Shown here in pieces: positions 894 to 34,760 of a DNA stretch of 34,760 nucleotides; within the stretch, counting starts at the first letter, position 1, and every line of letters starts with the position of its first letter. The position numbers were made by a program, and so were the translations under genes. The stretch comes from Catajapyx aquilonaris (taxonomy: Eukaryota). The stretch is from positions 1 to 34,760 of the forward strand of contig JYFJ02004102.1 of assembly GCA_000934665.2 (NCBI GenBank), in the 5' to 3' direction. Below the pieces are notes generated by a model that was given only the letters and a program-made list of their open reading frames with translations, did no database searches and was not told the DNA's origin.

Positions 894-1223
894 TGTAACA
901 GGGTGTGAAGGATGTGAGATAATTTTTGTGTGTGATGTAATCCTGCATTCTATTCGAGGGACAATTTGACTGACAAAGGTAATAAATATATGGGAGAGGG
1001 TCTCCAGAGGAGGACTCCCAGGGTGGTGGACAAGGGGAGCGGTTGTGCTCGCCCTTTTCGGATTTGGGGTAGTGTGTTGCACACCCCTTCATCACAGTGT
1101 AAAGTTTGAAGGAAGCTGTATACAAAAAAGGAATAAGATATATATGACAGTACACCCTGGAGTTTATTCAGAAGATCCTAATCCATTACGTTTGACCTTG
1201 CGATTGAAGGACACAAGGTTACA
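894..1223 (+). mobile_element. 3' LTR (about 330 bp) of the chromovirus-type element
   Basis: Starts TGTAAC at 894, just after the pol stop and a short G-rich PPT-like tract. Ends GTTACA at 1223 (6-bp terminal inverted repeat). Sequence after about 1229 aligns with host repeat copies at about 3855 and 7235, supporting the boundary. Confidence 0.7.
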
Positions 1224-3969
1224 GAATGTGACAAATATTGCGCCTTTTATTTTCCAAAGGATAATTACGGTGCCAATGGAAGAGCAACTAGAACATCTGG
1301 ATGACGCCCTTAATGGACGACTGCACACGCACCATACAAGAGCTTATTGGGCAAATTGAAAAGTACATACAAATTTACCTTGAAGATGAATGCAGCCTTG
1401 CTACTATTACTGGGACACACCCGGTGTGACGAGAATGATAAACCAACATTTTGTGTGGTATACCATACGACACATCCAAGTTATTTAGTTTACATTGACA
1501 AATGGCTCGTGAACGCAGGCTTGGTTAAGAAAGATTATAATCACGGTTAACGCTGATTGTATAAGTATAGCCTACAGTCTACACAGCCATATACGTACAG
1601 GGGAACTGAAACATAGATCAAGTTCCCGCCAGACCTGTGGATGGTTTCAGGTGTGCTCTTTACCAAACCTATCTGGGACCATCGGCAAGCAGGAGGGTTG
1701 AAACTGACTCTGAAATCTTCCAATGGGCACCTCGTCATTCCCCTTGTCATAATTATTATGACCGGAGACCCCAGGAAGTACGAAGCAGCAATTTCATACG
1801 ATGGTGGATGGAAAGCATACTGCGCCATTTTTTACTAACAAGTAAGATGTCACTGCACCTATGGGTTCTTCTCTTCCCACGCCTCTTCCATTTCACCTGA
1901 TGTCACCTTTCAGATTGTGACAAATTGCAAAGCTTGCATAGTTACAAGGACATGTAGGCTAAAAGTAGTAATGTTATCTGAGTCTACACTCGAAGGATGT
2001 GACACTCATGTGCGCCTAACATGAAGAGGTAAGCTTAATAGTGTCTATACAACGCAACAAAAATTTCGAAACAAATATCATAACATACAGTATACATAAA
2101 CACATTTATGAGATTCGCCTGCGCTATCGGGGATGCAACAATGCAAATTTTGAAGCAGTATCGATCTCTGAAGGAATACAATGTACGGTTGAACGAAGAA
2201 ATTATTGTACATACGAGAACGTATCTTGTGTTTGTGTGGCATTGCTAATAAACCACGATTTGATGGCTAACTTCCCTTCAGAATTTCCAGGGATGTGAAA
2301 CCATGCCTCATCATAACAACCATCAAGAAAAATAGCCAATTCCTGTGAGACAGCCTCACGGACATTACAAACAGAAGAAAATAAACGACGCCGGCGCCAG
2401 TTGACTTCACGAGCATTATTGACCACCAGAGACCGAAAAGAAGCGTCACAATGTTCTTAACAGTCCCGCGTGAAAGTGGTATTTAAGTTACTTACAGTTA
2501 GTCCGGCCGCAGAATATAAACACAGTAAAGCTTGACAGCAACAGGTGGAAATCATTCTCGATGCACAGACAACAATTATCTAAGTGCATGCAATAACAAA
2601 AAAAAAATCTCAATAATACTGCCAAATATGTTTTTATTTGCAACGGAGCATTCCGTCACTCTTTCGTAATTATATACGAATATGTGGCATAGAGTGTGAC
2701 AGATGTACAATGCCAAGAACCAATATAAGCGCTGGAAGAAGATAAAGCGGTAATAATTATTGCGCCCATCTCTTTCCAAAATAGGTAGTGCCACTGAAAG
2801 AGCAAGAAGAACATTTTAATCATGTATCATACATACAGCTATACCAGACCATGCTTCGGGGCTAACTGCACTGGCGCGAAGCCAGTTTGGAAGTGATACA
2901 AGGCAGCATTGTGACTGCCACTAAGAAACAGTACCCTGGTCAAATGACTTCGAAGCGAAGAAGGGTAAGTGTTAGTGTCCCACTGGCAGCGGTTGCATCC
3001 AGCAGAGCAAACATGAGTGCAAGCCTGAGCGATACCACGGACTGACGAGAGGGATAAACCTACATTTTGTTGGGGTATAAATTACAGGAAGCTCAATACA
3101 AAGCAGTCACCTTTTCCCCAGCTTCTCCAGCGTACGAGACTAAAAGCGTAATTACTGTACTAATTGTAGACACAATTTTGGAAAAGGTGAACATTCCTGC
3201 AATGAACAAATTCAGAAAACATCAGGCGACACTCCCGGCGTTACTCTAAAATTTGTGCCGTAAAAGGACAGCCTTTCAAGTAACAAATGCAGCATAAATA
3301 GCAGCATGAACCTATAAATCAGAAAATATTAATCAAGATACTACAAGGACGTATGCCTACAAGTAATATTGTTTTCAATAATTATAGGTAAAAATGAGGT
3401 CAAATGCAACTTTCCTTCTCGTTGTAGACACCTCATTTTGTATCGATGATAGTAATGCATAATACATTTATGCAAAGAGAGTATAAAGCACTGATTACAA
3501 TGAAACAAACGATGATGAGAGGTCCCTTCATCAAGTCATGTCGCGACTGTCACCATATCTACTACCTCTTTGAACGTATCATAACCAGGGGAGTAACATC
3601 CGTCTAGCATTCTGGCTCGTTTTAAAAGACACAAAAAACGTCAGACCTAGTTATTTGGAATGCTGGGCAATAAGTTGTGGACCCAAAGTTACATGAGTAT
3701 AGCAATATATAATTTGCCTTCGATAGTGCCATGTGCACATTTTACCATTGTCGTTTACAGTACCCTTCCGACATAATATATTTATTGCCAACATGTGGTC
3801 CAAACTATTACTTCACGAAGCAACAGGAGACCATGACATCAGTTTGAAGAACAATAATGCGCCTCTTATTTTCCAAAGCCGATGGTGCCAATGCAATAAG
3901 CGCATCTGGATCTTAAACGATGACCGTATACGAACTATACCAGGCCGTGTTGACCTAATTGAAAATGAC

Positions 3970-4092
3970 AGCCCGATCTACTGTTTTCTGGGGCTTATGG
4001 CGCTAGAGGTGTGTCTGGAGTCCCTGCATATTTATAAATATTTTATATAAAGGATTTCTTGGGTTTGTGGCGCTAGATGAGCCCGATCTACT
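3970..4092. mobile_element. About 97-bp insertion flanked by a 13-bp direct repeat (TSD-like)
   Basis: AGCCCGATCTACT at 3970-3982 and 4080-4092. The intervening sequence is absent from the paralogous copies near 1370 and 7390. Confidence 0.6.
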
Positions 4093-7000
4093 CGATGACG
4101 ATGGTACAATGCAGCCTTGGGACTATCACTAGGACACAGTAACCCAATGATTGAGATGCGAAGAGAAATGACGAGTACGTGAAGGCTAGGCAGTAAGCAT
4201 CCACTTCATGACAGTCTACATAAGCCTGTTAATTCCAGGGCGTGACGAGACGAGTGACAAACCAACATTTTGTGTACAGTACGGAACATCCATGTTATTT
4301 ATGTAATTTACGAATGGTTCATGATGGCTTGGTTAAGCACGATTATATTTTCCCTAATTCTAGTAGCATAAGAAAAAAATTACGTTCAAATTGTCTCTTA
4401 AGTAATCGTTATAAACCAATATGTGAATACCATCTTCTTTTCTGACATGAGAAGGTACACAGCTGGGACAAGTGGAGCTACGTGATATTGAGGGCAGCTC
4501 AACAAAAACCAGTCACCTTTTCCCCAGCTTCTCCTATCTATTACAAGGGGTACGAATTTGGAAAGCGGAACACAACAGGAACATACCTTTGCCCAAGACC
4601 ATGATCTATTTAAATATACATCCGGCGACCCCTCTCCGCACTTACATACAGAGAATGTAATGCTAATAAATGGACTGTCTTTCAAGCAACAACAGCATAA
4701 ATAGCAACATGAACTTCGAGAAAATAAGCCACTCCATAGGCGTAAGAACGGGCGTACATGTAACTGTTTTGATTCTTTAGTAGCAAATTATTCCTGGTAA
4801 AAACACATGAGTTGAATTACGTAAGACTATCTCTGATGTGGGAGCAGATAATATTATAGCAGCCTACTACTCCATCATTACCATTTGATTCATAAAAGAC
4901 TCCCATTAAGAGATGGATTGAATTTACTTCAACCTGAAACACTCTCCGCCGCCTATTGTGAGACACACCGTTCAATTTCGGTTCAATTAAAGAAGACAGA
5001 AGGCGCTCCCAGGCATATCTGAGATCATGGTGTCTGTGTGTGTGGCTGAAGCTTATCCAACTTCATACCAACGAATGTGTCGCCAGGACCAACATCAGAT
5101 GATGAGGTGATTCCAATTCGCATTTGGACTTGTTTCAGTCTCACGAATCGAGTTATTAACACATACAAAGATGGGACAGAGGTACACATACCCGAAAACC
5201 CATGGTAGTTTATGTCTTTGATTTCATATAAACCAGTACGTGGCGGATAAGTTGACTGAAACACAAGACTAATAAACTGTGTTTTGGGTCCCTTACAAGT
5301 TTGAAGCCACGAACGTCGAAACTAATAAAACAAAAAACAGTGCTAATCTAACACGATAATTGTAAGTATACGTACTCTAGATATAAACCAGGGAACTGCA
5401 ACCGAGGTCACGTCTCGCCCGACCTGTGCTTGGTTTGTGTCTACAGGGCGACAAAAATGTCCAAACAGTATGTCATAATACTATACAACAGCACACACAT
5501 GTATGAGATCGCCTGAGCTATCGGAGATGCAACAATGCAAATTTTGAATAAGAATTCATCTTTGAAGGAACACAATGTGCGGATGATCGAGGAAATTCTG
5601 ATAAACATCTTGTGTGGTCTTGCATGGTTGGTGCCGAAACATCTTTCAAGAGAATGAAAAAAAATTGGTGGGTTGATGGCAACTCAACAACTACTCGAAT
5701 GCCAGACGACATTGACCAGAGGCCCTGTTGAGGATGGCGGGCACCAGGCAGTCTTGCAATACCCATACGGCATCAGAAATGAACCGGACACTTCTGATTG
5801 GCATGAACCATATCTGTTGCTGGCAACATTGGATTACTGAGTGAGATTATGATTCTATGTTGTAGTCAATAAGGGCATATTCTATCGCATACTTTGCACT
5901 TCTTCGGAGTGAAATTCAGGTTCAGGTTTATTTGGAGGAAGTATCTATGGCTATCTGGGTATAAGAAGACGTAAAGTTCAGAATTTTGGTCAGTTCAATT
6001 CAGTTATTCATAATAAGACGTGAAGTTCAGGATGAGATAAGCTCACAGCAACGAGTAACTATACACATATATGCAAGGGCGCATGTAAGCAAGTAAAATA
6101 ATACAGTATATGTATAGATCCATTTTTTACAACTTAGATTATTGTAAACACGGGAAAACAGATACATTCACCTTATGATTATCAAGATTCTCTAATCCAG
6201 TTTCCACAATAATCCCAGGGACATTTTTGGAAACACGAAATTGATAAGAAACATTCACATTGCGCCTCTCATTGCAACAAGTATAGGTTGGGCCAATGGA
6301 AAATATGGAAAATCATCTTAGTGTACGTCTGCCTTCCTGTACACACAGCTATACCAGACCGCACTTGGCTAGTTCCAAATGTATGAAGGCACCTTGAAAG
6401 GGATTCTAAGCAGAATTATGAAAACATACGTCATCACAAGCAGCCAGAAAACAGCAAGAGGGGAGAGTTCCACATAAATCAGTGAGAATCTAATTTTTCT
6501 GGAATAGCGCACCATGGTATTAAGATTACAGACATGCGGCTCGCAACGACCGACTCTTATTTAAGCAGGATTTTGATAACTTCACTAATTCTCTGTATGA
6601 CCGTGCATAAAAAAAGCAAACAATATTATTTGTGTGTTCTTGGCACTACTAATGAACCTGCGTGAGGACGAGTTACATGAGGTCAAGTGCAACTTTCTTT
6701 CCCTTTGTAAACACCTCATTTTACAATATTGTATCGGAATTATTGTAATGGGTAATATGTATACTAACGCAATGCATGTATAATGCACTAATTACAATGA
6801 AACAAGCGCCATCATCCCTGATGGTTAGTCCTCACGTCACGAGGGCAAGTCACCATAAAATTATCCCCTACCTCTTTGAACACTGCAACGATCAATTATA
6901 ATGAGGGAAGCTCGTTTCATAAGGCAGCACTAAGAACAACAGACCTTAATTAGTTATTTGGAATGCTGCTGATCAATTAGTTGTTGATCCAGAGTTACAT

Positions 7001-8229
7001 GAGTATAACAATATAATTTTCTGATTATACAGGTAATTATTGGGTGCTCATACAGTACTAATAATGCACAAACAGTATTGAATAAGCTGGGGAGTGAGTC
7101 AAAAGTATTTGATATAGGGCCAGCACAATGTAATTTATCATTGTCTTATGTAAAATACTTTCCGACTTAATATATTTATTGGCAACATGTGATCCAAAAC
7201 ATTATTTCCAGTAACACGACGGAACAGGAAAATATGATGACAAACAATGCGTCTCTCATTTTCCAAAGCAGGTGGTTCCAATGAAATAGCAACTTGCACA
7301 TTTGAGCGACTCCCTTAATGGATCTTTATGGACGACTGTACTGTACACGCACTACACCAGGCCATGTTGGGCTAATATTGAAAACGTCACCCTAACTTAC
7401 CACGAAGTCCGATGCAGCCTTGCAACTATCACCTGGATACAGTAACCCAATTATCAAGAAGCGAAATGGCAAGTAAGTGAAGCAAGGCAGTAAGCATCCC
7501 ACCTCATGACAATTGCAGTATGTAGTGGTTCGACTACCACTACAAGTAGCTACTTATTCCTGGAAGTGATGAGAGTGACAAACCAACATTTTGTGTGTAG
7601 ACGAAACATCCATGGATGTTATTTAGATAATAGACGATGAGAGGAAGAATACCACTGAGAAGCTTCGCGCAATGCCAATGATCTTCTGTGTGATTTTGAG
7701 GAGTAACTACAGCAACAGGCAGGTCAACACAAATCAGTCACCATTTCCCCAGCATCTCTCTGAGTATATTACAAGGCCTACGACTACTACACTTGTAAGC
7801 ACAACTTTGGAAAGACAGGAAATGACCTTTATCCCAGCAGAGCAACGAACTGTTTCAAAAAAAGTCAGGCGACGCGTACACATGTACAGACAAAATACAG
7901 TGACATAAATGGACGGTCTTTCAAGCAACAACAGCATAAATAACAGCATGAATTTCAGGCAAAGAAGTCACTCAATAGGCGTACTGTACAGCATGTAATA
8001 CTGCATTTTCATTCTTTGGTAGCAAGTTATTCCTGGTGAAAACCTTAGTAGATTAACACAATGGGCATGTATTTTCGAGTCCTACAACGCATGGACGGTG
8101 CAGTCATACAGGTTACAGCACACCACTGCTTTATAATTACCATTCGATTCGCAAAGGACTCCCATTAAGAGATGGAGTCAACTCATTTCCTAAACCTGAG
8201 ACTTTTCACTTGAACTGATTGTATAATTA

Positions 8230-8790
8230 CGCCAATAGTTATTGATGTTTATTGCCCTTAAAACTTAACATCCATATTTTCATGTGATGTGAGTCTTTTT
8301 CGTAGCTGGTTGTAATTCATATTTTGAGGTACGATAAGGAAAATTATAGTCGCAAGTACAATGATATTTTATGCCATGGTGCTTCTGTAATATGAGGTCA
8401 ACACAATATTATCCTGAAGGTGAGACATTCTCTAAACACCTTTAGTTTCATGTGACTGTCGTGGGTTTTGTTATGCACTTTACATGATGCTGGATGGGAC
8501 TTTATCGCCAATATTTATTGTTGTTCATTGCCCTCCAACCTTAACATCCATATGGTCATGTGATGTGTCTTCTTCGTTGCTGGTTGTAATCGACATTCGC
8601 TGTGGAAGGATCAGTAGGATTAAAGTCGCAAGTACAATTTCATATTTTGTGCCAGGAGCTCTTGAAATATGAGGGCGCAATGTATGCTACAGAGATAAGG
8701 GATCCTCTTAACACATGTTAAGCCATTTAGTTTCATGTGATCCTTGTGGGTTGTGTTCAGCACTTGACATGATGCAGGGTGGGACCTTTA
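8230..8790. repeat. Diverged tandem dimer of a unit of about 277 bp
   Basis: CGCCAATA...CTTAACATCCATA...GTCGCAAGTACAAT...TTTAGTTTCATGTGA...CATGATGC..G.TGGGAC occurs at about 8230-8505 and again at about 8506-8790. Confidence 0.85.
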
Positions 8791-11186
8791 ACGATGACAG
8801 AAGACGCTTCCAGGCTTATATACGATCCTGATGGCTGGAGCCCAAGCCAATGTTGTTGCAGGACCACCAACTGATGACGCATGATTGCAAACGCATCTAG
8901 TTATTAAAACATACAAAGATGGGACAGAAGAATACACCCGAAAAACCATGGGAGTTTATGACTTAGATTTCACATAAACCAGTACGTGGCTGGATAAGTT
9001 GATTGGATCACAGCCCTCAACTGCGGTTTGGGTCCCCAAGCCACGAATGTCAAACTAATAAAACGAAGAACAGGGCTAATCTAACATGCTGATTTACAAA
9101 CATGGGAACTGCAACAGAGGTCATGTCCGGCCACCCTGTGCTTGGTTTGTGCAGGTTTGCCTTTTACCAAACCAATTTGGGGGCATTGGAAAGAAGATCG
9201 GTTGAAACTGACTCTGAAATCTGCCCATGGATAAGGCACACCTCATTCCCCTTACTTGTCGTCATATTATCACCAGAGACCATTGAGCAGCACTCAACAG
9301 CTACTCAATCTCTGTTTCTCCTGCTGGTGTGATTGTTTGATTTGAAATGAGCCAAAGGCATGAAGGCTACCTGACTATTTGAAGATGGAGCCACAACTGA
9401 CAAAGAGATAACACTGTTGGACTCATATTGCATCATACCCAACGAATCTTTTTCTTTGGGATAACAAGGATATATTGTGGCTCTCCAGACCCTTCCACGA
9501 ATCTTGGAAACTGCATTTTAAAAATAAGTCGAATGTGACTGAAGCACACATACTCATCAGCTGACAATCTCCACAACTCGCCTTTCTAAGATTCGAATGC
9601 GCTTAGGTATATTACCTGCTCTGGCTAATGTAGGATAGATAATACATGATATCGTAATATTAGGTTGTCAGCTGTCACTAGGAATCCGGAGTCGGCGAGT
9701 ACTTTTTGGGGATCTACATTATACTTGTAGAAAGTCAATTCAAACTTACAGTGAATAGTTTAGTAATAAGACATACTGCACCATTTTTGACTAGATGGCG
9801 ATGCAGAGCTATGATTTGTTATTTTCCCACATCACTTCTATTTCATCTTTCACTAAAGAACGCTCCTCTGAATATATCTCAATAAGTACCGGTAACCATT
9901 TTGACAAAAGCAAATTGCCAAGTTTTCACAGTTACATCAGGTTACATGTAATATCTTACTCCCTTCCACTTTACAAATAGAGTACCAGTTATGCCACAAG
10001 AGACTGGCAGACTCTGCACCTCCTTTCACTTCCATTCAGCAGCAAAATATGCGACCAGAACCTGGCAGACCAACCCTAAATCCATTGTCAATCCATCAAT
10101 AACCGACCAACCATTAAGAGAAATAATAAAAAAATAAATACTCCAGGGAAGGAGGCACACTAAATTGGTCATTAGCCTACCCAGATTCTCAGCTGGTTAA
10201 CCAACACGCGACAAAAATTTAAGTCGGTGAACACAACATCAGTTGCAACAAAGGATACCCAAAGTGTGACAGAAGAAAAGGGGGACATGATGAAAAGAGA
10301 CTGTCAGCGAGTAAGGGGGTGTGACAAGATGCCAATTGTTTCAAGTTATGGATTTCTTCATATTAGCCCCATAAATACATATATCATGCAGTTAACATGT
10401 AGTACAGCACTCCTACATGCATGTAAATATATATTTAATTAAATGTTTGGGTTCTTATTTGTACAGGATGCACATTTTGGGCTCATCCACTTGCTCATCC
10501 AATACCAACTATATCAACAACAAAAATCAGATTCTTGACACAAAACCTGCTTGCTCTAACTGTAAACCTCTACAAACCATTTCTGTACCAAATAACCTCA
10601 TACATAACTTCAGTTCAAAGATAAAATATTTTAGATCCTAGAATAGATTAGCATCCGACTTATGAAGTGCACCTCTCTCAGGAAGAGAATGTAACCAAAT
10701 TCTGTGACACGCAGACTGCGACACCAAAACCAACAATATGCTCACATGACTAACTTAATTACATATAAAACTTCATTCAATGAAATAATTAGTATATACG
10801 GAGTAAGAGTAATAAGCACCTCCGTCAAAACTATTGTGATGTGCAGGCCTAGTCCTGGATGAATACCTTACAATATTTAAGTCAGTTTTCTTATAGAGAA
10901 ACTGTAGTCCCCAACAAAACTTTTCAATGGTGAGTAGGCTAACCATATGAAGGCTCACCATCAGTAATAAACAAACGAACAAGAGGAAGAGGTACCACAA
11001 CTTCTGACACATGTGATATGCCAGGCCAAAAACAAAATTACCTATGATTATTATCAGTATTACAATACAAAAGTCAGTTGACACAGATTTCAGTTGCATG
11101 ACTATACAAAACCAGCAGTACTTGAACATGGCAAATGTATGAGCTGGAAGTGATGCTAAACCAACTGAGCAAGACAGCAGGATTAC

Positions 11187-14168: not shown

Positions 14169-14934
14169 GGAACATTCTAGAAGTGTCGATTATTGTTCCT
14201 CCCTGCCTTATTATTCCGCCTTCCCCCGCCGCCTCTCTCTCCTCCCACTCACAATCCATGCCCTGGGGGGCCTTCCCCTGAGCGTTAGGCGTCCCCCAGC
14301 AGCAACACGGGGCGGGCAAACCCAGGGTTGATGCCGCCCCGAGGCGAGACCCGGCGACGTTCCATCTTCAAAGAGACGCCATCTTCAACTATGACGCAAT
14401 CGACACTTTTTTCCCGCCAAAATATCACCTACGTTCTAGTCGCGGCTGTAAGCACGCATGCGCTCCATATAAGCCAATAGTAGCTAAGAGCTTCCCTCTG
14501 CCGCCCAATCAAGAACGGGCAGTTCAGGATGTCGGGACGTGTAAATTGTGTAGGGCTTAGCGAATTTAACATGATTTGCACATTTGATGTATTATTGGTT
14601 CAGACTGCCTGATGAGTGTGGGTAAGTCAATCAGAGCGAGGCGATCCTTACCATGTTAAACTGTGTGGTGTTCCCGCCTTCCCGCTCGGAACTCGGGCAG
14701 TGATGGCGGCTTGTTGAGTCGTGTTGGGTCTGGTCGCCTCGGGGCAGCCCAGCACCAGGGCTTATTGCCCGCCCCGGGCAGCAGCTAGGGGCGGCCACGG
14801 TTTGGTAACACGATGGAGCTGCCAGGGGGAGTGGAGGCTGACACGGGTCGCCACAGACGCAGGTTGAAAAGGGGTGGGGGAAAAAAAAGGGAAGGGAAAT
14901 TTCTAGAACGTTCCATCCGCCATGCGCCATCTTG
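14169..14934. promoter_or_regulatory. GC/CpG-rich, mirror-symmetric promoter-like module bracketed by heat-shock elements
   Basis: HSE GAAcaTTCtaGAA (14170-14182) and four-unit HSE GAAatTTCtaGAAcgTTC (14896-14913). GC boxes at 14309-14317 and 14767-14775. YY1-type CGCCATCTT at 14377-14385 and 14925-14933; TGACGCAAT at 14392-14400; E2F-type TTTTCCCGCCAAA at 14409-14421; NRF1-like CGCATGCGC at 14455-14463; CCAAT at 14474 and 14505. Confidence 0.6.
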
Positions 14935-14942
14935 AAAATTCT

Positions 14943-14972
14943 GTTTAGCATTGCATTAATGCAATGCTAAAC
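14943..14972. repeat. Perfect 30-bp palindrome
   Basis: GTTTAGCATTGCATTAATGCAATGCTAAAC equals its own reverse complement. Confidence 0.95.
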
Positions 14973-14974
14973 TG

Positions 14975-15078
14975 AATTCACACCTTAAAACAGGCAGGCA
15001 ATCATCAAGGTCGTACACATCAATAATTATTGATGTGTACGACCTTGATGATTGCCTGCCTGTTTTAAGGTATGAATT
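14975..15078. repeat. 104-bp spacerless palindrome (perfect over 14982-15071)
   Basis: Centre between 15026 and 15027 (CAATAA|TTATTG); one mismatched pair, 14981/15072. Confidence 0.95.
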
Positions 15079-17330: not shown

Positions 17331-17863
17331 TTTCAGCTGCTTAAGGCAAATAGGTTCTAAAAGCTAATGTTTACTCCCATCACAATGGCATTAGTACAGC
17401 CATTACAAGTCTGTTCATGGATCTCTTCTTTGGAAGCTACTCTGAACTTTGATTACCGTAATTCAAGTTGATTACTGTTATATGTTGGAATCTGACAGTT
17501 TGGATTGTAGTTGTCCGATAAGTCTGGGTCAACAAGGGGCTGCATTTTACTGTTGTGGTTGGATGCTCACATTACTATGATAGTTTGGATGACTCAATAG
17601 ATAATATGAATTAATCAGTTTGTGGCCGTAGGTGTAAGGAATATTGAGTTCAGGCAAATGTTTTTGTACACTTTACTTCCATGTGCTACAAATTAGAAAT
17701 AGAACTTCCCACTTAACATATTGAGTTATTGAAATATCGCTGTCGCCAGACTGATTAACTTACTATTGCAAATAGTTCACTATTCATTTTATCAAATAAG
17801 TAAGTGTTGTGAATGAGGCAATCCAAACATTGTGGCCTTACAAGGCTCTTTCGATATTTGGTC

Positions 17864-18133
17864 CCCTCGATGGTATCTCCACCTTATCGTGGTGGTGGGG
17901 TTTGCGTTTCTCCCATGACCCCAAGAGCTATACCGGCGGTAGCTTCGTCTACTGGTAGGGCCACCCAAGCCGGACAGGTCTTTGGGATAGGAGACAGACT
18001 AAGAGAGATGCCAGTCTTTCCTCTCTTCTTTTTCCTCTTCGTTTCTCCCTCCATCTGTCCCACCTTTGCTTCTTCTTACAGCCAGATAGCCACAGTTGCT
18101 TTGGCTTCTTCCAAATAAACCAAACCAAACCAA
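17864..18133 (+). mobile_element. 270-bp SINE-like retroposon: RTE-clade 5'-UTR-like structured head, pyrimidine-rich body, (AAACC)n tail
   Basis: Perfect 17-bp TSD TCTTTCGATATTTGGTC at 17847-17863 and 18134-18150. Head CCACCTTATCGTGGTGG...AGGGCCACCCAAGCCGGACAGGTC resembles RTE (Expander/BovB-type) 5' UTRs. Ends AATAAACCAAACCAAACCAA. Confidence 0.85.
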
Positions 18134-19049
18134 TCTTTCGATATTTGGTCTGTTTTAATTAGAATTAATGGAATTTTGAAGCAACATCACAATCACAATT
18201 AAAAGTATTTTCTTGTAGGCCCTACGTTGTAATCCAAACATTTATGACTCCCTGGATGATTTCTGCGTAAATCAAATCTTACAATGAGCATATGATTGTC
18301 ATGATTATCTTTAGAAGTCTGCGTATTTATTCTGCTTTGATATATCCGGCGGGATCTACACTACCAAACCTTCATTTTATTAAGGAAAATGATGAACACT
18401 AGATGGAAAGTGTGTCATTAATTCATCACATTCACACACCTCGGCCTATTTTAAGTTCATGTGTTATTCTTTGTGTTTGAATAATATTGTTTTTTGAGCA
18501 ATACGTTTTATTGTCCAGCCATATGTTTGTCTCCATACCATTCAATCAAATGAACAAGTGTGCCTTGATTCCTCAATTTAAATGGTTGATAAGAACACTC
18601 CTCAATTTACCTGGTCTCCTTTCAATTTATGGTGCAAAAAATAACATCATTAGTACCCTGAAATCAGACAATAAGTAAGTCAATTCCAATATCCTGCAGG
18701 TAATGAACACTTTTAGTGTCCTCAAGCAATAAGAGAGAAACCTACACATGAAAGAGCTTTTATAGCTTCACGTGAAAATTCTTCCTGCTGGTCGAGTGAT
18801 GTGTTATCCGTCGGCTACTACTCCTCCACGTCTGCCCCTCTGTTTTTCAATGCATGGCCTGAGTGATTACAGAAGTATCTCTCCAATAATAATTGTGTCA
18901 ATAATGGGTGTGTATGGCTTATGCATGACATGTCGTGGTGGTGGTGGTGGTGGGGATTACAGAGTGGAGTGCCAGCTTTGTCTGCGTATGATCTCCGTAA
19001 CCCTCGCCGTGACCATTGTAAACCGGTGACAATGTCTGTTGATTTCTTG

Positions 19050-21994: not shown

Positions 21995-22055
21995 TGACAA
22001 GATGCTGATTTTTATGCTTATAATAATTATAATCATAAAAATCAGCATCTCGTCA
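21995..22055. repeat. 61-bp near-perfect palindrome (30-bp arms, 2 mismatches, 1-nt centre)
   Basis: TGACAAGATGCTGATTTTTATGCTTATAAT-A-ATTATAATCATAAAAATCAGCATCTCGTCA. Confidence 0.9.
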
Positions 22056-28270: not shown

Positions 28271-28356
28271 AAACTGACAAAGCCCCACTGCTCCAATAGG
28301 ATATACCCATGACGTCATGGGTATATCCTATTGGAGCAGTGTGGCTTTGTCAGTTT
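28271..28356. repeat. 86-bp spacerless palindrome, one mismatch
   Basis: Centre ...ATATACCCATGAC|GTCATGGGTATAT... between 28313 and 28314. Confidence 0.95.
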
Positions 28357-28406: not shown

Positions 28407-28502
28407 TGTACTATGGGCGCCAAAAGAATTGACCGGAGTTGATGGGTATATGGCACTATATACCCATCAACTCCGGTCAATTCTTTTGGCGCCCATAGTA
28501 CA
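28407..28502. repeat. Inverted repeat with perfect 45-bp arms and a 6-nt spacer
   Basis: TGTACTATGGGCGCC...GATGGGTATAT-GGCACT-ATATACCCATC...GGCGCCCATAGTACA. Confidence 0.95.
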
Positions 28503-31500: not shown

Positions 31501-34498
31501 TGGAATACATTTTGCTCTGGCACTAAGGACCGGGGCAGGGGGCACTTGGGCATACTCTTCATTATTTACATGTCGTTCCTTTTTGAAGCCCGTCACCTGT
31601 AATGATGAGAATGTGGTCGCTCTCTGTAATTAAAAGGGGAACTTGATGTTGGTTGATATGAAATACACACCCAAAACCATGATAGGGGGAGCAGTGTCCT
31701 ACCAGGAGATTTTCTTTTATCACACTTTTAGTGCTATGCGGTATGTTACGACTCTGCAATAATAATTGTGCCACATAGTTAGACGGTGGTTCTAGTGACT
31801 AAAGTTGCTGCGTGTCAGACTGTCATTTAGTAATAATTACATACATGCAGCTCTAGTCACTGACTCCGACGAGGCATAGTCTTGGCTCTCAGTTGCTTAT
31901 GACGCAAGAATAACACTTTATAAGCTTCATATGACACTTGACTTATACCAGGCATATGCAATGCAACGCACCACTTCTCCAGGTCGTCCTACCTATTAGC
32001 AAACCGGAGCTGTTATTTATAAGGAGAAACTAATTTACTGGATAGATCACCCTTAGGATAAGCTCCTGGACTATTGTCTTATGCTTTGGCTTTGTGCAGA
32101 ATCATTATCGATGTTGACATATGAGAGACGCCAGAGACGCGAGATCTGTCCGGTAATGTTTTCTTCTTTATCAAATGGTTCAAATTTTGCCAGCTTCTTT
32201 GTAAACGAATTTATACTATAGGAGGGATGCATACTCTAGGTGCTATTATAGGTGTGATAAACTAGACATGTTCTGCACAGATTGGTAACCAAAAGTTTTT
32301 GAACTTTTGTCAACAATTTTCTATGACTTATAAAGTTAGACATGCAGATTATATTCAGTTGCAGCTTCCTCCGGTGTATACTCTTGACATCTGAAAGGGG
32401 CATGAGTCGTGTTGTACAGCCCTACCCTTTTTTCACCTCTGACTCTTTCAGGCAGACTGGACGCCTACTGATTGATGCCATCGGAGTGAATGAAGCTGCC
32501 TCCATATTCTGGATGGCATCTTCTCTTTCCAATAGTCTCATTCGGCCTCCTGCCTTCTGGGCAGTACAATTTGTAGAGCGGGAGATCTTCTCCTGAGGCA
32601 TTGTCATAGTGTACATTCATTATATGTCATATAACTTATATGTGAGTCGTCTTGATGATGTGAATCGTCTCTCTCAATCACGATAGTATTAATGTCGAGC
32701 CTGCAATATATTTATTACACTCTGCAGTAACTGGAAGTTCGAGCATAACCGCCGGCATAATTCACACTCATATTGTTGTCTCAGAGTGTCCTTGTAACAT
32801 AATTTCAGTACGGTAACTTACTGGAAGCATTCCATTAAAAAATAACGAGGATCAAAATTACGGAAATATGCCTTGGTTATTGCGACATGCCGGGTTATAC
32901 CGGCATGGAGTTTTATGTGAGGTAATACGGTATTTAAATTAATTGCGCCTGAGTCGTGTCATGGTTTTCTTCAGCAAGTATGTTTTTGTAAGACTCGAAA
33001 CATACTCTTATGGATTTCCATGTCCTTGAATGTTGCTGCATTATTATTCTGGAAGGCGTCTTATTTTGTCATATAGTTTTCTCTTTCCAGTGTGCTTGTT
33101 CGTGTATACCGCGCCCTTTTATTGCAGTATTAGTATTTGCAAGAAGGTACAAAGTGAAGGTGACTTCCTTTGCAGCCATGTTTCACACGATGTCATGTAA
33201 TTATGCGTACAAATGTTGTCGTAGAGAAAACTGTAGCAAAACTAAAATATGTGCCACTTTGCCGTTCCAATTATGTAGTTGTGTGAGGTTATTTTTCCTT
33301 CTCTGGTCTCGGCTAGATTACTGATTCGCAATTTAGAAATGCCGCACAACCGTTTGCACGTTGTAGTTGTCATGGGCCATAACTCGATGTTGCTGATGCG
33401 ACCGTACGGGCGTGTGGGTACACCAAAGCAAAAAGCGTCGTGGTGACAACGTATGTATTTGGCTATGATACAGATGGTATGGTTGGAGGGGAACAGGGAT
33501 TGACCAGCGCGACTGGCCATGTAGGTTATGGGTGGCGACCAGGGCGACTGGTCCAGAACATAGGTGAAGACCGCAAAGCATGATGGTTAAATGAGCAGAT
33601 AAGACAGGGTACCAAGGTGACATGAGGTGATAAGAGGTTGGGTTTACACAGTTGTCATTTTACAAATAATGGGCCGTCAAATACTGTCACACTGCTAATT
33701 TGGGTGTTCAGTAAGTTTCTCATATCTTCCATCTGTATAATGTGTTCCTTGAAAGCAATTGCTAGCCTCGTCGTAGATTTTCTCCGCACAATCTGCCCTA
33801 TTTGGCTGTTGACCACATACAATTATTATGCTTTGCAGGAAATGTGGCCTTATGATTTATTTTCTCAGCTCACAATATTCGTGCATATGATGTAGGCTCG
33901 GAGTACCAATCTACCAGGGAGGATAAATGATAAGATCACATCGCAATTTATTTACGCCGCTTTATATGATTTTGTAGGAGCCACAGGGTGTCAAACTAAC
34001 AATTCAGAAACAAGGCGCCATTGATATAGTAGAGAGAGATGAAATATGGACTGCAACAGAGCCAGTAAGGAAGGTAATGTTTTTTGTTCCTCTTTGCTAT
34101 GTGTATATTATTGATTATTATTATTTATTTTCAACATGTGCAATTTGATTGGTGCGTTTGGCAATAAAATCATCTTCACCGTGGTTTAAGTCACCTTTCG
34201 CCATGCACATCTCTACCTTAAAGAGATCCCCTATGTCACGTTTTATGGATTCATCAAGTGTCTAGCTATCTTCGTTTGGTAATTTTCTACATTGCTGTAC
34301 ATTGTACGAGGTAATTATGTAAATGATTTGTGTCTCCTTTGAGAGATTTTATAGCTTCAATATGACCTTGATGAAGGAGCTAAATCCAAGAGGTGAAAAG
34401 GGGAACGAGAATCTCACACGTGTTCTTTCAAGTTGGCCATAATTTATTGGTTCTCAACACACATGTGTAATACAGTACGTATATGCAATCACATATGT

Positions 34499-34760
34499 GA
34501 CAGGCTGGACCTGAGCTGCGTGGCCGAGTTCACTGGCCCACCGGCCCCTCCGTGGGCCCTGGTGGACGTGGACTGCTGCCTGGCACTCTCCGGGAATGCC
34601 AAGGCCGACACAGCGGACTGCGTTTACCGCATCCTCTTTGCCCAGCTTAAGAGGACAAGATATGAAGACTGGGCCCACGTGTACACCGACGGATCCAAGT
34701 CGGCTGACCACGTGGGGTGCTCTTTCGTCTGCTGCGGAGAGGCTCACTCTGAGTCCCTCC
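34499..34760 (+). mobile_element. 5'-truncated non-LTR retrotransposon (I/Nimb/Loa-type) ORF2, start of the RNase H domain; continues beyond the window
   Basis: Abrupt GC rise at about 34500 and an uninterrupted frame ...PPAPPWAL...YRILFAQLKRTRYEDWAHVYTDGSKSADHVGCSFV, with the PPW and (I/V)YTDGSK..G motifs of LINE RNase H. Confidence 0.88.

What the first reader, a model, noticed from the sequence alone, without database searches (positions are those of the whole stretch)
17847..18150. Young SINE whose RTE-derived head folds in HDV-ribozyme helix order
Seen: a perfect 17-bp TSD, no tRNA-like A/B-box head that I can recognise, and pairings in nested-pseudoknot order. These are P1-like CCCCTC (17863-17868) with GGTGGGG (17894-17900, imperfect); P2 TGGTATCTC (17871-17879) with GAGATGCCA (18005-18013); P3 ACC/GGT closing the 7-nt loop TTATCGT; a large branched P4 (TCTCC/GGAGA, CCGGC/GCCGG); and CTAA (17999-18002) shortly before P2'. 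The element's 5' end coincides with the start of P1. Known: HDV-like ribozymes process the 5' ends of some non-LTR retrotransposons, including RTE members. Inference: a ribozyme-headed non-autonomous retroposon that cuts itself out of read-through transcripts. Against: L3 lacks the canonical CC, there is no GG after P1' and no G at +1, so it may be a variant fold or an inactive copy.
Basis: partly seen in the sequence, partly recalled or inferred. Interest (0 to 1): 0.72.

Follow-up and report, generated by a model that had tools for sequence, protein, structure and literature searches.

The report
Ribozyme-headed SINE with borrowed tail
This is one of hundreds of copies of a 270-base jumping element whose front end folds like a self-cutting RNA and likely frees it from host transcripts, standing where ordinary SINEs carry a tRNA-derived promoter, while its back end is the same docking hairpin found on this animal's tRNA-headed SINEs.

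Summary
Confirmed, with a corrected fold and one new result. The element (17863-18133) belongs to a young family of at least 302 copies. 30 of 55 copies sampled by an internal motif start at C17863-65. Its first 151 nt fit the complete HDV-like order. The head is closest to RTE LINE heads, and the similarity stops at the ribozyme's end. The tail is not RTE-like. It is shared with tRNA-headed Vhc SINEs of this genome (24 of 30 loci) and resembles an I-group LINE end. Best reading: a chimeric SINE in which a ribozyme replaces the Pol III head. Precedents are R2/R1 hybrid SIDEs, NARTc and bipartite RTEs. Cleavage is untested and no exact partner LINE was found. This scan noted the ribozyme head before, in this genome and in others.

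The parts
17847..17863 (+). Left target-site duplication (last base shared with element +1)
   Evidence: sequence
17863..17868 (+). P1 5' strand; C17863 is the predicted +1 (cleavage 5' of it); six C in the family, C17867 is T in this copy
17869..17870 (+). J1/2 (2 nt)
   Evidence: sequence; structural inference
17871..17880 (+). P2 5' strand; C17880 pairs with G18003
   Evidence: top pair C-G 14, T-A 3, unpaired 1 of 18 families
17881..17893 (+). P3 (17881-83 / 17891-93) closing the 7-nt L3 (17884-90); A17886 is the P1.1 base
17894..17900 (+). P1 3' strand (U17896 bulged or mismatched)
17901..17901 (+). P1.1 partner U (A-U here; G-C 10, A-U 4, U-A 2, G.U 2 across 18 families)
17909..17994 (+). 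Extended P4 domain; basal stem 17909-13 / 17990-94
17999..18002 (+). J4/2 CUAA; C17999 is the predicted catalytic cytosine (HDV C75 position)
18003..18013 (+). P2 3' strand (A18004 bulged); similarity to LINE heads ends here
18014..18079 (+). Pyrimidine-rich linker, origin unresolved (low complexity)
   Evidence: sequence
18080..18106 (+). 3' hairpin shared with tRNA-headed Vhc SINEs and similar to an I-group LINE 3' end; predicted recognition site for the LINE reverse transcriptase
18114..18133 (+). AATAAA followed by AAACC repeats (variable-length tail)
18134..18150 (+). Right target-site duplication
   Evidence: sequence

Best explanation
The element is a chimeric non-autonomous retroposon made of an HDV-like ribozyme fold related to RTE LINE heads and a 3' hairpin shared with the genome's tRNA-headed SINEs; the head likely cuts the RNA out of longer host transcripts just before C17863, and the tail likely recruits an I-group LINE's reverse transcriptase. 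Shown: the family, the duplications, the sharp start plus scattered 5' truncations, the covarying fold, the absence of Pol III boxes, and the two separate ancestries of head and tail. Inferred: read-through transcription, Mg2+-dependent cleavage by C17999 leaving a 5'-OH end, target-primed reverse transcription by an I-group (Nimb-like, label recalled) partner, and origin by template switch between an RTE 5' end and a SINE or LINE 3' end.
For: Sharp start: 30 of 55 copies found by an internal 23-mer begin at 17863-65, and the other 25 start anywhere from element base 6 to 96. In 41 resolved junctions a single extra base is T 6 times, A twice and never G; a capped Pol II start would be expected to favour a purine or an extra G (recalled knowledge). 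Swap test over 18 families: cognate versus swapped duplex energy is P2 -11.4 vs -4.8, basal P4 -6.1 vs -2.4, P1 -12.9 vs -11.2 kcal/mol, reached by 0, 0 and 1 of 100,000 permutations; P1.1 by 9 of 100,000; two wrong-region controls are not significant. On a 15-row tool alignment P3 plus P1.1 are 100% paired, 0 of 500 shuffles, with slid partners at 25-50%. P1.1 type needs 6 changes on the head tree. Within this element's own lineage older copies are G-C and young ones A-U, with no unpaired case among 69 copies from sets where these bases were not imposed. Without conditioning on the catalytic C, the best partner of the P2 5' strand falls just after the C-N-A-A motif in 39 of 61 rows, and in none of the 12 rows that look like chance matches (counted by eye). 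Trypanosome ribozymes cleave at C1 (PMC4035085 section 8) and carry A at the third L3 place with T or C after P1' (supplement sequences, my reading). Head: 76-79% identity to five RTE-type heads, ending at 18008-18013; a full RTE LINE carries this head (L199). Tail: 24 of 30 loci with a near-identical hairpin have a tRNA-like head region and Vhc-like body (Vhc motif seen in PMC4758252 supplement); 15 of 19 match to the I-group LINE end at the same distance from the terminus, background 7 of 200,000.
Against: No cleavage or expression data. P1 is imperfect in this family (bulge or mismatch at U17896) and weaker in the window copy (-7.5 vs -10.3 kcal/mol). J1/2 is only 2 nt, and a 1-nt spacer nearly abolished cleavage in another HDV-like ribozyme (PMC4908430). 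Only 18 of 28 5'-intact copies pass my descriptor. The search pattern imposed the inner P3 pairs, most of L3, the GGG and the TTG, so their conservation is by construction; the C-W-G-A-C anchor was imposed. Related families inflate permutation tests and the head tree is mostly unresolved (3 of 16 branches well supported). No LINE with the identical tail was found (0 of 38 loci; 0 of 30). The 19-nt tail core was chosen after seeing the match, and the I-group LINE sits on a long branch. The same head type also occurs on R1-like LINEs (67-68% identity), so the RTE donor is the nearest, not the proven, source.
Confidence: 0.7

Rival explanations
1. The element is a plain internal-deletion derivative (SIDE or bipartite type) of one LINE, not assembled here, that carried both this head and this tail; the tRNA-headed SINEs took the same tail independently.
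For: LINE heads of this type occur on more than one clade (RTE and R1-like). An I-group LINE in this genome has its own C-rich HDV-order head. The assembly is fragmented (20,583 contigs) and searches score only the best candidates. Bipartite RTE derivatives with this head and RTE-type tails exist in the metagenome set (L167, L236).
Against: The one RTE family recovered has an unrelated 3' end with GAT/GTT repeats (scores within shuffle range). None of the metagenome loci with this head holds the tail core (best 17 of 27). No locus with this head had an I-group protein as best hit (33 rows). The I-group LINE's own head is a different sequence.
Confidence: 0.15
2. The head acts mainly as an internal Pol II promoter at the DNA level, and the ribozyme fold is inherited but dispensable or inactive in this family.
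For: Pr77 is both promoter and ribozyme (PMC3185411). LINE-headed LP-SINEs were read as promoter-driven (PMC4758252). The element has AATAAA before its tail. P1 is imperfect.
Against: Helix covariation points to selection on RNA structure, including a G-C versus A-U switch within this element's own lineage. The start is a C with no extra G at junctions.
Confidence: 0.12
3. The pairings are chance in a GC-rich repeat head and there is no ribozyme fold.
For: MFE z-score -0.18. No Rfam hit.
Against: Four helices covary, wrong-region controls are null, and the descriptor has 0 hits in 1.39 Mb of shuffles. MFE programs cannot form this pseudoknot.
Confidence: 0.03

Closest known systems
R2/R1 hybrid SIDEs of Drosophila (Eickbush and Eickbush 2012, PMC3414825; abstract and section 7 read)
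   Same: Non-coding element with a ribozyme from one LINE clade and the 3' end of another. Identity to the donor is confined to the ribozyme plus a few bases. Those ribozymes were shown to cleave.
   Different: They are rare and confined to one rDNA site. This family is dispersed, has hundreds of copies and variable 9-17 bp duplications, an RTE-type head, and a tail shared with tRNA-headed SINEs.
L1TcRz / Pr77 of L1Tc, NARTc, ingi/RIME, SIDER (PMC3185411 passages and sections 12, 18 part 1; PMC4035085 passages, section 8, supplement passages)
   Same: C at +1, single-pair P1.1, A at the third L3 place, ribozyme at the 5' end of non-autonomous elements.
   Different: 77 nt with a short P4 versus 151 nt with an 86-nt P4. 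Trypanosome host. [quoted passage not shown]
Bipartite non-autonomous RTE elements (Kojima 2018, PMC5786205; parts 1-3 of 5 read) and RTE 5' ribozymes (Ruminski 2011, not held, seen only as cited)
   Same: Keeps the extreme 5' end of an RTE-type LINE, no ORF, no Pol III head.
   Different: The 3' part is not RTE-like. I could not check whether Ruminski's RTE ribozymes include this build.
LP-SINEs of molluscs (Matetovici 2016, PMC4758252; section 10, passages and supplement passages)
   Same: A LINE-derived 5' module replaces the tRNA head on a shared SINE body or tail.
   Different: The LP head is a different ~70-bp sequence, read there as a promoter. Here the head is a covarying ribozyme fold.
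V-SINE / Nimb partnership in bivalves (PMC11481361 passages)
   Same: V-domain SINEs with Nimb-derived tails, and tails shared between SINE superfamilies.
   Different: All have tRNA heads; the word ribozyme does not occur in that paper's main text.

Membership tests
HDV-like ribozyme | Nested order P1, P2, P3, P1.1, P4 with 3-bp P3 and 7-nt L3 | tested here: met
HDV-like ribozyme | Catalytic C at the start of a short A-rich J4/2 directly before P2' | tested here: met
   C17999-UAA; 39 of 61 rows without imposing the C; C-N-A-A in 17 of 18 families when anchored
HDV-like ribozyme | Covariation of helices | tested here: met
   caveats on relatedness and imposed pattern positions
HDV-like ribozyme, canonical HDV/CPEB3/R2 build (G at +1, C-G P1.1; recalled) | G+1 and C(C) in L3 pairing with G(G) | tested here: not met
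   First pair is pyrimidine-G in 19 of 19 rows; P1.1 is never C-G; no Rfam hit
HDV-like ribozyme, Pr77/L1TcRz build | C at +1 and a single non-C-G P1.1 pair | tested here: met
   (figures not visible; pairing read from supplement sequences)
HDV-like ribozyme | Mg2+-dependent self-cleavage 5' of +1, lost on C-to-U change | not testable with these tools
   needs in vitro assay
Non-autonomous non-LTR retroposon | Dispersed copies, variable target duplications, repeat tail, 5' truncations, no ORF | tested here: met
Classical SINE (Pol III head) | tRNA, 5S or 7SL head with internal promoter boxes | tested here: not met
Bipartite non-autonomous RTE | 5' part from an RTE 5' end | tested here: met
   76-79% to five RTE-type heads, 72-74% to two more, 67-68% to R1-like heads; RTE proteins downstream
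Bipartite non-autonomous RTE | 3' part from an RTE 3' end | tested here: not met
   only one RTE family of this genome and the metagenome loci were available
SINE mobilised by an I-group (Nimb-like) LINE | Tail homologous to the partner LINE's 3' terminus | tested here: inconclusive
   15 of 19 in the loop at the same position, similar duplication lengths (7 values, 8-15 bp); outer stem and repeat unit differ; exact partner not found
Nimb clade (for LINE L083/L398) | Placement with named Nimb reverse transcriptases | not tested
   No named references. It has two ORFs and EN-RT, a partial RNase H motif seen by eye, and groups apart from RTE. The Nimb label is recalled.

The most novel reading that the evidence does not exclude
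The HDV-like ribozyme is a fourth, promoter-free kind of SINE head: a portable module that repeatedly replaces the tRNA head on ordinary SINE bodies and tails across animals. This family carries it on a V-SINE-type tail. Two metagenome elements (L197, L213) carry it directly upstream of Nin-domain-like motifs. The I-group LINEs that move such elements begin with HDV-like ribozymes of their own, in a clade not listed among ribozyme-bearing LINEs.
Probability: 0.45. Interest if true: 0.72.

Novelty: new variant of a known kind. Interest (0 to 1): 0.5.

Why it matters
SINEs are defined by a Pol III head that supplies both transcription and a precise 5' end. This family suggests that a self-cleaving RNA can do the second job and let host read-through do the first, on the same tail that tRNA-headed SINEs use, and can reach hundreds of dispersed copies. 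It also shows a widespread animal ribozyme build (C+1, purine-pyrimidine P1.1, long P4) that Rfam does not detect. Active copies inside genes would cut host pre-mRNAs on the sense strand. RTE 5' UTRs are used in gene-writing templates (PMC13708176 passages), so knowing that their first 150 nt fold as a ribozyme is of practical use. The basic idea, a ribozyme-headed non-autonomous retroposon, is already in print.

Tried and rejected
Rfam at gathering and E-value thresholds: no HDV-like family for the window, the element or 18 homologous loci. MFE folding was uninformative. The pattern scan of viral contigs gave 0 hits. The Pfam DUF6451 search for RTE gave nothing and rang in no control. Forty long non-LTR loci chosen from the RVT_1 list held no matching head or tail apart from an inserted copy. 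The RTE family of this genome was rejected as tail donor. 38 tail-only sites were all full, diverged or truncated copies of this element, none running into a LINE. Expression: no RNA holder listed; the single run of unknown type gave only short contigs inside the element; neither bears on expression. A register with a host-supplied G at +1 and a 4-bp P3 was considered and rejected because 17862 is random flank and the covarying pair is 17886-17901. A one-base alternative remains open, in which an upstream U pairs with G17900 (extra T in 6 of 41 junctions). The LP-SINE head was checked and is a different sequence. My first anchor mis-placed the catalytic C in 3 rows and favoured P2 by construction; it was replaced, where L225 was dropped as a near-duplicate of L190. 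Pfam found nothing informative in 18 window ORFs, so the transcriptional context of this copy is unknown. Ruminski 2011 was not held; its figures and supplement may already show this RTE build.

Full report
Observation. The motifs are as described. The element runs from 17863 to 18133 on the + strand between direct repeats at 17847-17863 and 18134-18150. A DNA search of the own genome gave 1,087 candidates, of which 40 were scored at 96-100% identity. Exact 23-mers give 151 hits for the head region and 302 for the tail, so the family has at least 302 copies. The 30 best copies differ from their majority by a median 1.1%, and older subfamilies go down to about 65-85%.

The 5' end. The top hits are biased to full length, so I sampled 55 further copies by the internal 23-mer (55 of the 100 places listed). 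30 of 55 start at 17863-65, and 25 start at scattered points from base 6 to 96, the usual pattern of reverse-transcribed elements with a defined RNA end. Of 41 junctions with a resolved duplication (9-17 bp, 17 of 41 at 12 bp), 14 abut exactly six C, and most others share one or more C with the duplication. A single extra base is T in 6, A in 2 and G in none. So the RNA begins at C17863, not at a G. Five of 28 intact copies have a C/N run of nine or more at the junction, which may be slippage or assembly error.

The fold. With C17863 as +1 the spacing is canonical: P1 17863-68 / 17894-900 (six pairs, U17896 bulged), P2 17871-80 / 18003-13 (A18004 bulged), P3 17881-83 / 17891-93, a 7-nt L3, a single P1.1 pair A17886-U17901, an 86-nt P4 domain, and J4/2 CUAA starting at C17999. 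One scan of metagenome contigs gave 111 loci. The 50 with a complete head fell into 17 clusters; I used one member of each plus the window (18 families). Swapping strands between families destroys P2 (-11.4 to -4.8 kcal/mol), basal P4 (-6.1 to -2.4) and, less so, P1 (-12.9 to -11.2); 0, 0 and 1 of 100,000 permutations do as well, while two wrong-region controls are null. P1.1 is paired in 18 of 18 (G-C 10, A-U 4, U-A 2, G.U 2; 9 of 100,000). A tool count on 15 of these rows agrees (100% paired, 0 of 500 shuffles). The tree needs 6 changes of P1.1 type but is poorly resolved. Within this element's own lineage, 65 copies are A-U, 4 older ones G-C and none unpaired, in sets where the bases were not imposed. 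Caveats: the pattern imposed the inner P3 pairs, most of L3, GGG and TTG, and imposed the C-W-G-A-C anchor. One search did not impose it, and there the P2 partner falls right after C-N-A-A in 39 of 61 rows (by eye; 10 real-looking rows miss, and 12 rows look like chance pattern matches). A descriptor finds only this site in the window and nothing in 1.39 Mb of shuffles, after I relaxed its P1 cut-off to admit the window copy; 18 of 28 intact copies pass. Rfam finds nothing and MFE folding is uninformative.

Trypanosome Pr77 ribozymes were mapped to cleave at C1 (PMC4035085 section 8) and have a one-pair P1.1 (PMC3185411). Their sequences show A at the third L3 place and T or C after P1' (supplement, my reading). 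The same paper says earlier screens were too restrictive on P1 orientation and P1.1 bases. So the missing CC, GG and G+1 mark a known active build, not decay. Real weaknesses are the P1 bulge, the private C-to-T change in this copy (-7.5 vs -10.3 kcal/mol) and the 2-nt J1/2 (PMC4908430, part 1 of 4).

Origin of the head. A complete single-ORF EN-RT LINE of RTE type carries this head (L199, 1,064 aa). Of 33 rows with enough downstream DNA, 10 have RTE as best protein match, 2 an R1-like zinc-knuckle ORF1, and 21 none. The element is closest to RTE-type heads (76-79% for five), and in all nine comparisons the alignment ends at 18001-18013, the end of the ribozyme.

Origin of the tail. The RTE family recovered from this genome (42-49% to L199) ends in an unrelated sequence with GAT/GTT repeats, and no metagenome locus with this head holds the tail core. 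A loosened tail pattern led instead to tRNA-headed SINEs. Of 30 loci fetched from 52 exact hits to the tail variant, 24 carry a tRNA-like head region and V-like body, 1 an old ribozyme head, and 5 were scored tail only (one of the 5, L464, is tRNA-type by eye). Their body matches the Vhc SINE motif printed in the supplement of PMC4758252. Shared sequence starts at 18081 (80-83% in five of eight alignments; three extend into low-complexity DNA). The hairpin loop also matches the 3' end of a two-ORF I-group LINE of this genome at 15 of 19 bases, at the same distance from the terminus (background 7 of 200,000; alignment), and that LINE's duplications are of similar length (8-15 bp, 7 values). V-SINE/Nimb partnerships are reported in bivalves (PMC11481361 passages). 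No LINE with the identical tail turned up, so the partner is inferred by class only.

Mechanism. Most likely the copy is transcribed passively inside a host transcript, the head folds and cuts 5' of C17863, the 3' end forms near AATAAA and the repeats, and an I-group LINE protein binds the hairpin and reverse-transcribes the RNA at a new site. About half of the copies are completed to +1. Family structure, fold and dual ancestry are shown. Cleavage, transcription route and partner are inferred. I put this at 0.70, a one-LINE deletion derivative at 0.15, promoter-only at 0.12 and chance at 0.03.

Comparison with what is known. It works like an R2/R1 hybrid SIDE (ribozyme of one LINE, 3' end of another) with a Pr77-type catalytic core. 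It fails the membership test for bipartite RTE elements on the tail, and for classical SINEs on the head. LP-SINEs show LINE heads replacing tRNA heads, with a different head read as a promoter. Nine full-text searches returned no paper whose title, abstract start or passages I read describe an HDV-like head on a tail shared with tRNA SINEs, or a ribozyme on Nimb LINEs. [quoted passage not shown] Ruminski 2011 could not be read, figures are not held, and subscription papers and Repbase were not searched. This scan has noted the ribozyme head before, in this genome (e1-9004237, e1-7832045) and in others.

Wider hints. Two single metagenome elements have this head followed directly by Nin-domain-like motifs (L197, L213, compared by eye); no target duplication was found for them. 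The I-group LINE's own 5' end starts sharply at a C run in seven copies and passes the HDV-order descriptor, with U-A at P1.1.

Verdict. A real, young, ribozyme-headed retroposon and a new variant of a known kind. Interest 0.5.

Noticed in passing
L398:3396-3483 (G000:C2786) and L401, L402, L404, L406-L408: The 5' end of a two-ORF I-group (Nimb-like, label recalled) LINE starts sharply at a C run and fits the HDV order: 6-bp P1, U-A (possibly also G-C) P1.1, C-U-R-A before P2'. This clade is not among the six listed as ribozyme-bearing.
   Followed up: partly
L410-L413, L416, L417 (G000:C6304, C12722, C14224, C13317, C6014): A tandem repeat of about 500-640 bp per unit contains that LINE's ribozyme-like head, alternating intact and P2/P3-deleted versions: a possible ribozyme-bearing satellite.
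   Followed up: partly
L197:396-554 (-) and L213:3977-4535 (+): Non-coding metagenome elements with this ribozyme head followed by Nin-domain-like SINE motifs; L213 ends in AATC repeats. Single copies, no duplication found.
   Followed up: partly
L186:2200-2360 (-), L176:1754-1893 (-): The same head on R1-like LINEs with a zinc-knuckle ORF1, inserted next to TTAGG repeats (SART-like, label recalled).
   Followed up: partly
L006, L038, L042 (this family) and L400 (I-group LINE): Short tandem duplications of the first 10-15 bases at the 5' junction, suggesting re-priming at the template's 5' end in both elements.
   Followed up: no
L101-L103 (G000:C320, C2474, C3842): An older G-C subfamily copy embedded in a larger repeated unit with a shared upstream flank and a degenerate tail, apparently multiplied as cargo.
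   Followed up: no
window 34340-34747: Degenerate fragment of the same I-group LINE (71% protein identity, 3 stops).
   Followed up: no
window 14937-15078, 28271-28356, 28407-28502, 21995-22055: Long near-perfect palindromes (arms 21-52 nt, 0-6 nt spacer).
   Followed up: no
window 14288-14796: 32-nt terminal inverted repeats 445 nt apart, MITE-like.
   Followed up: no
window about 1200-9300: Several diverged copies of a 1.1-3.7 kb repeat unit without Pfam hits.
   Followed up: no
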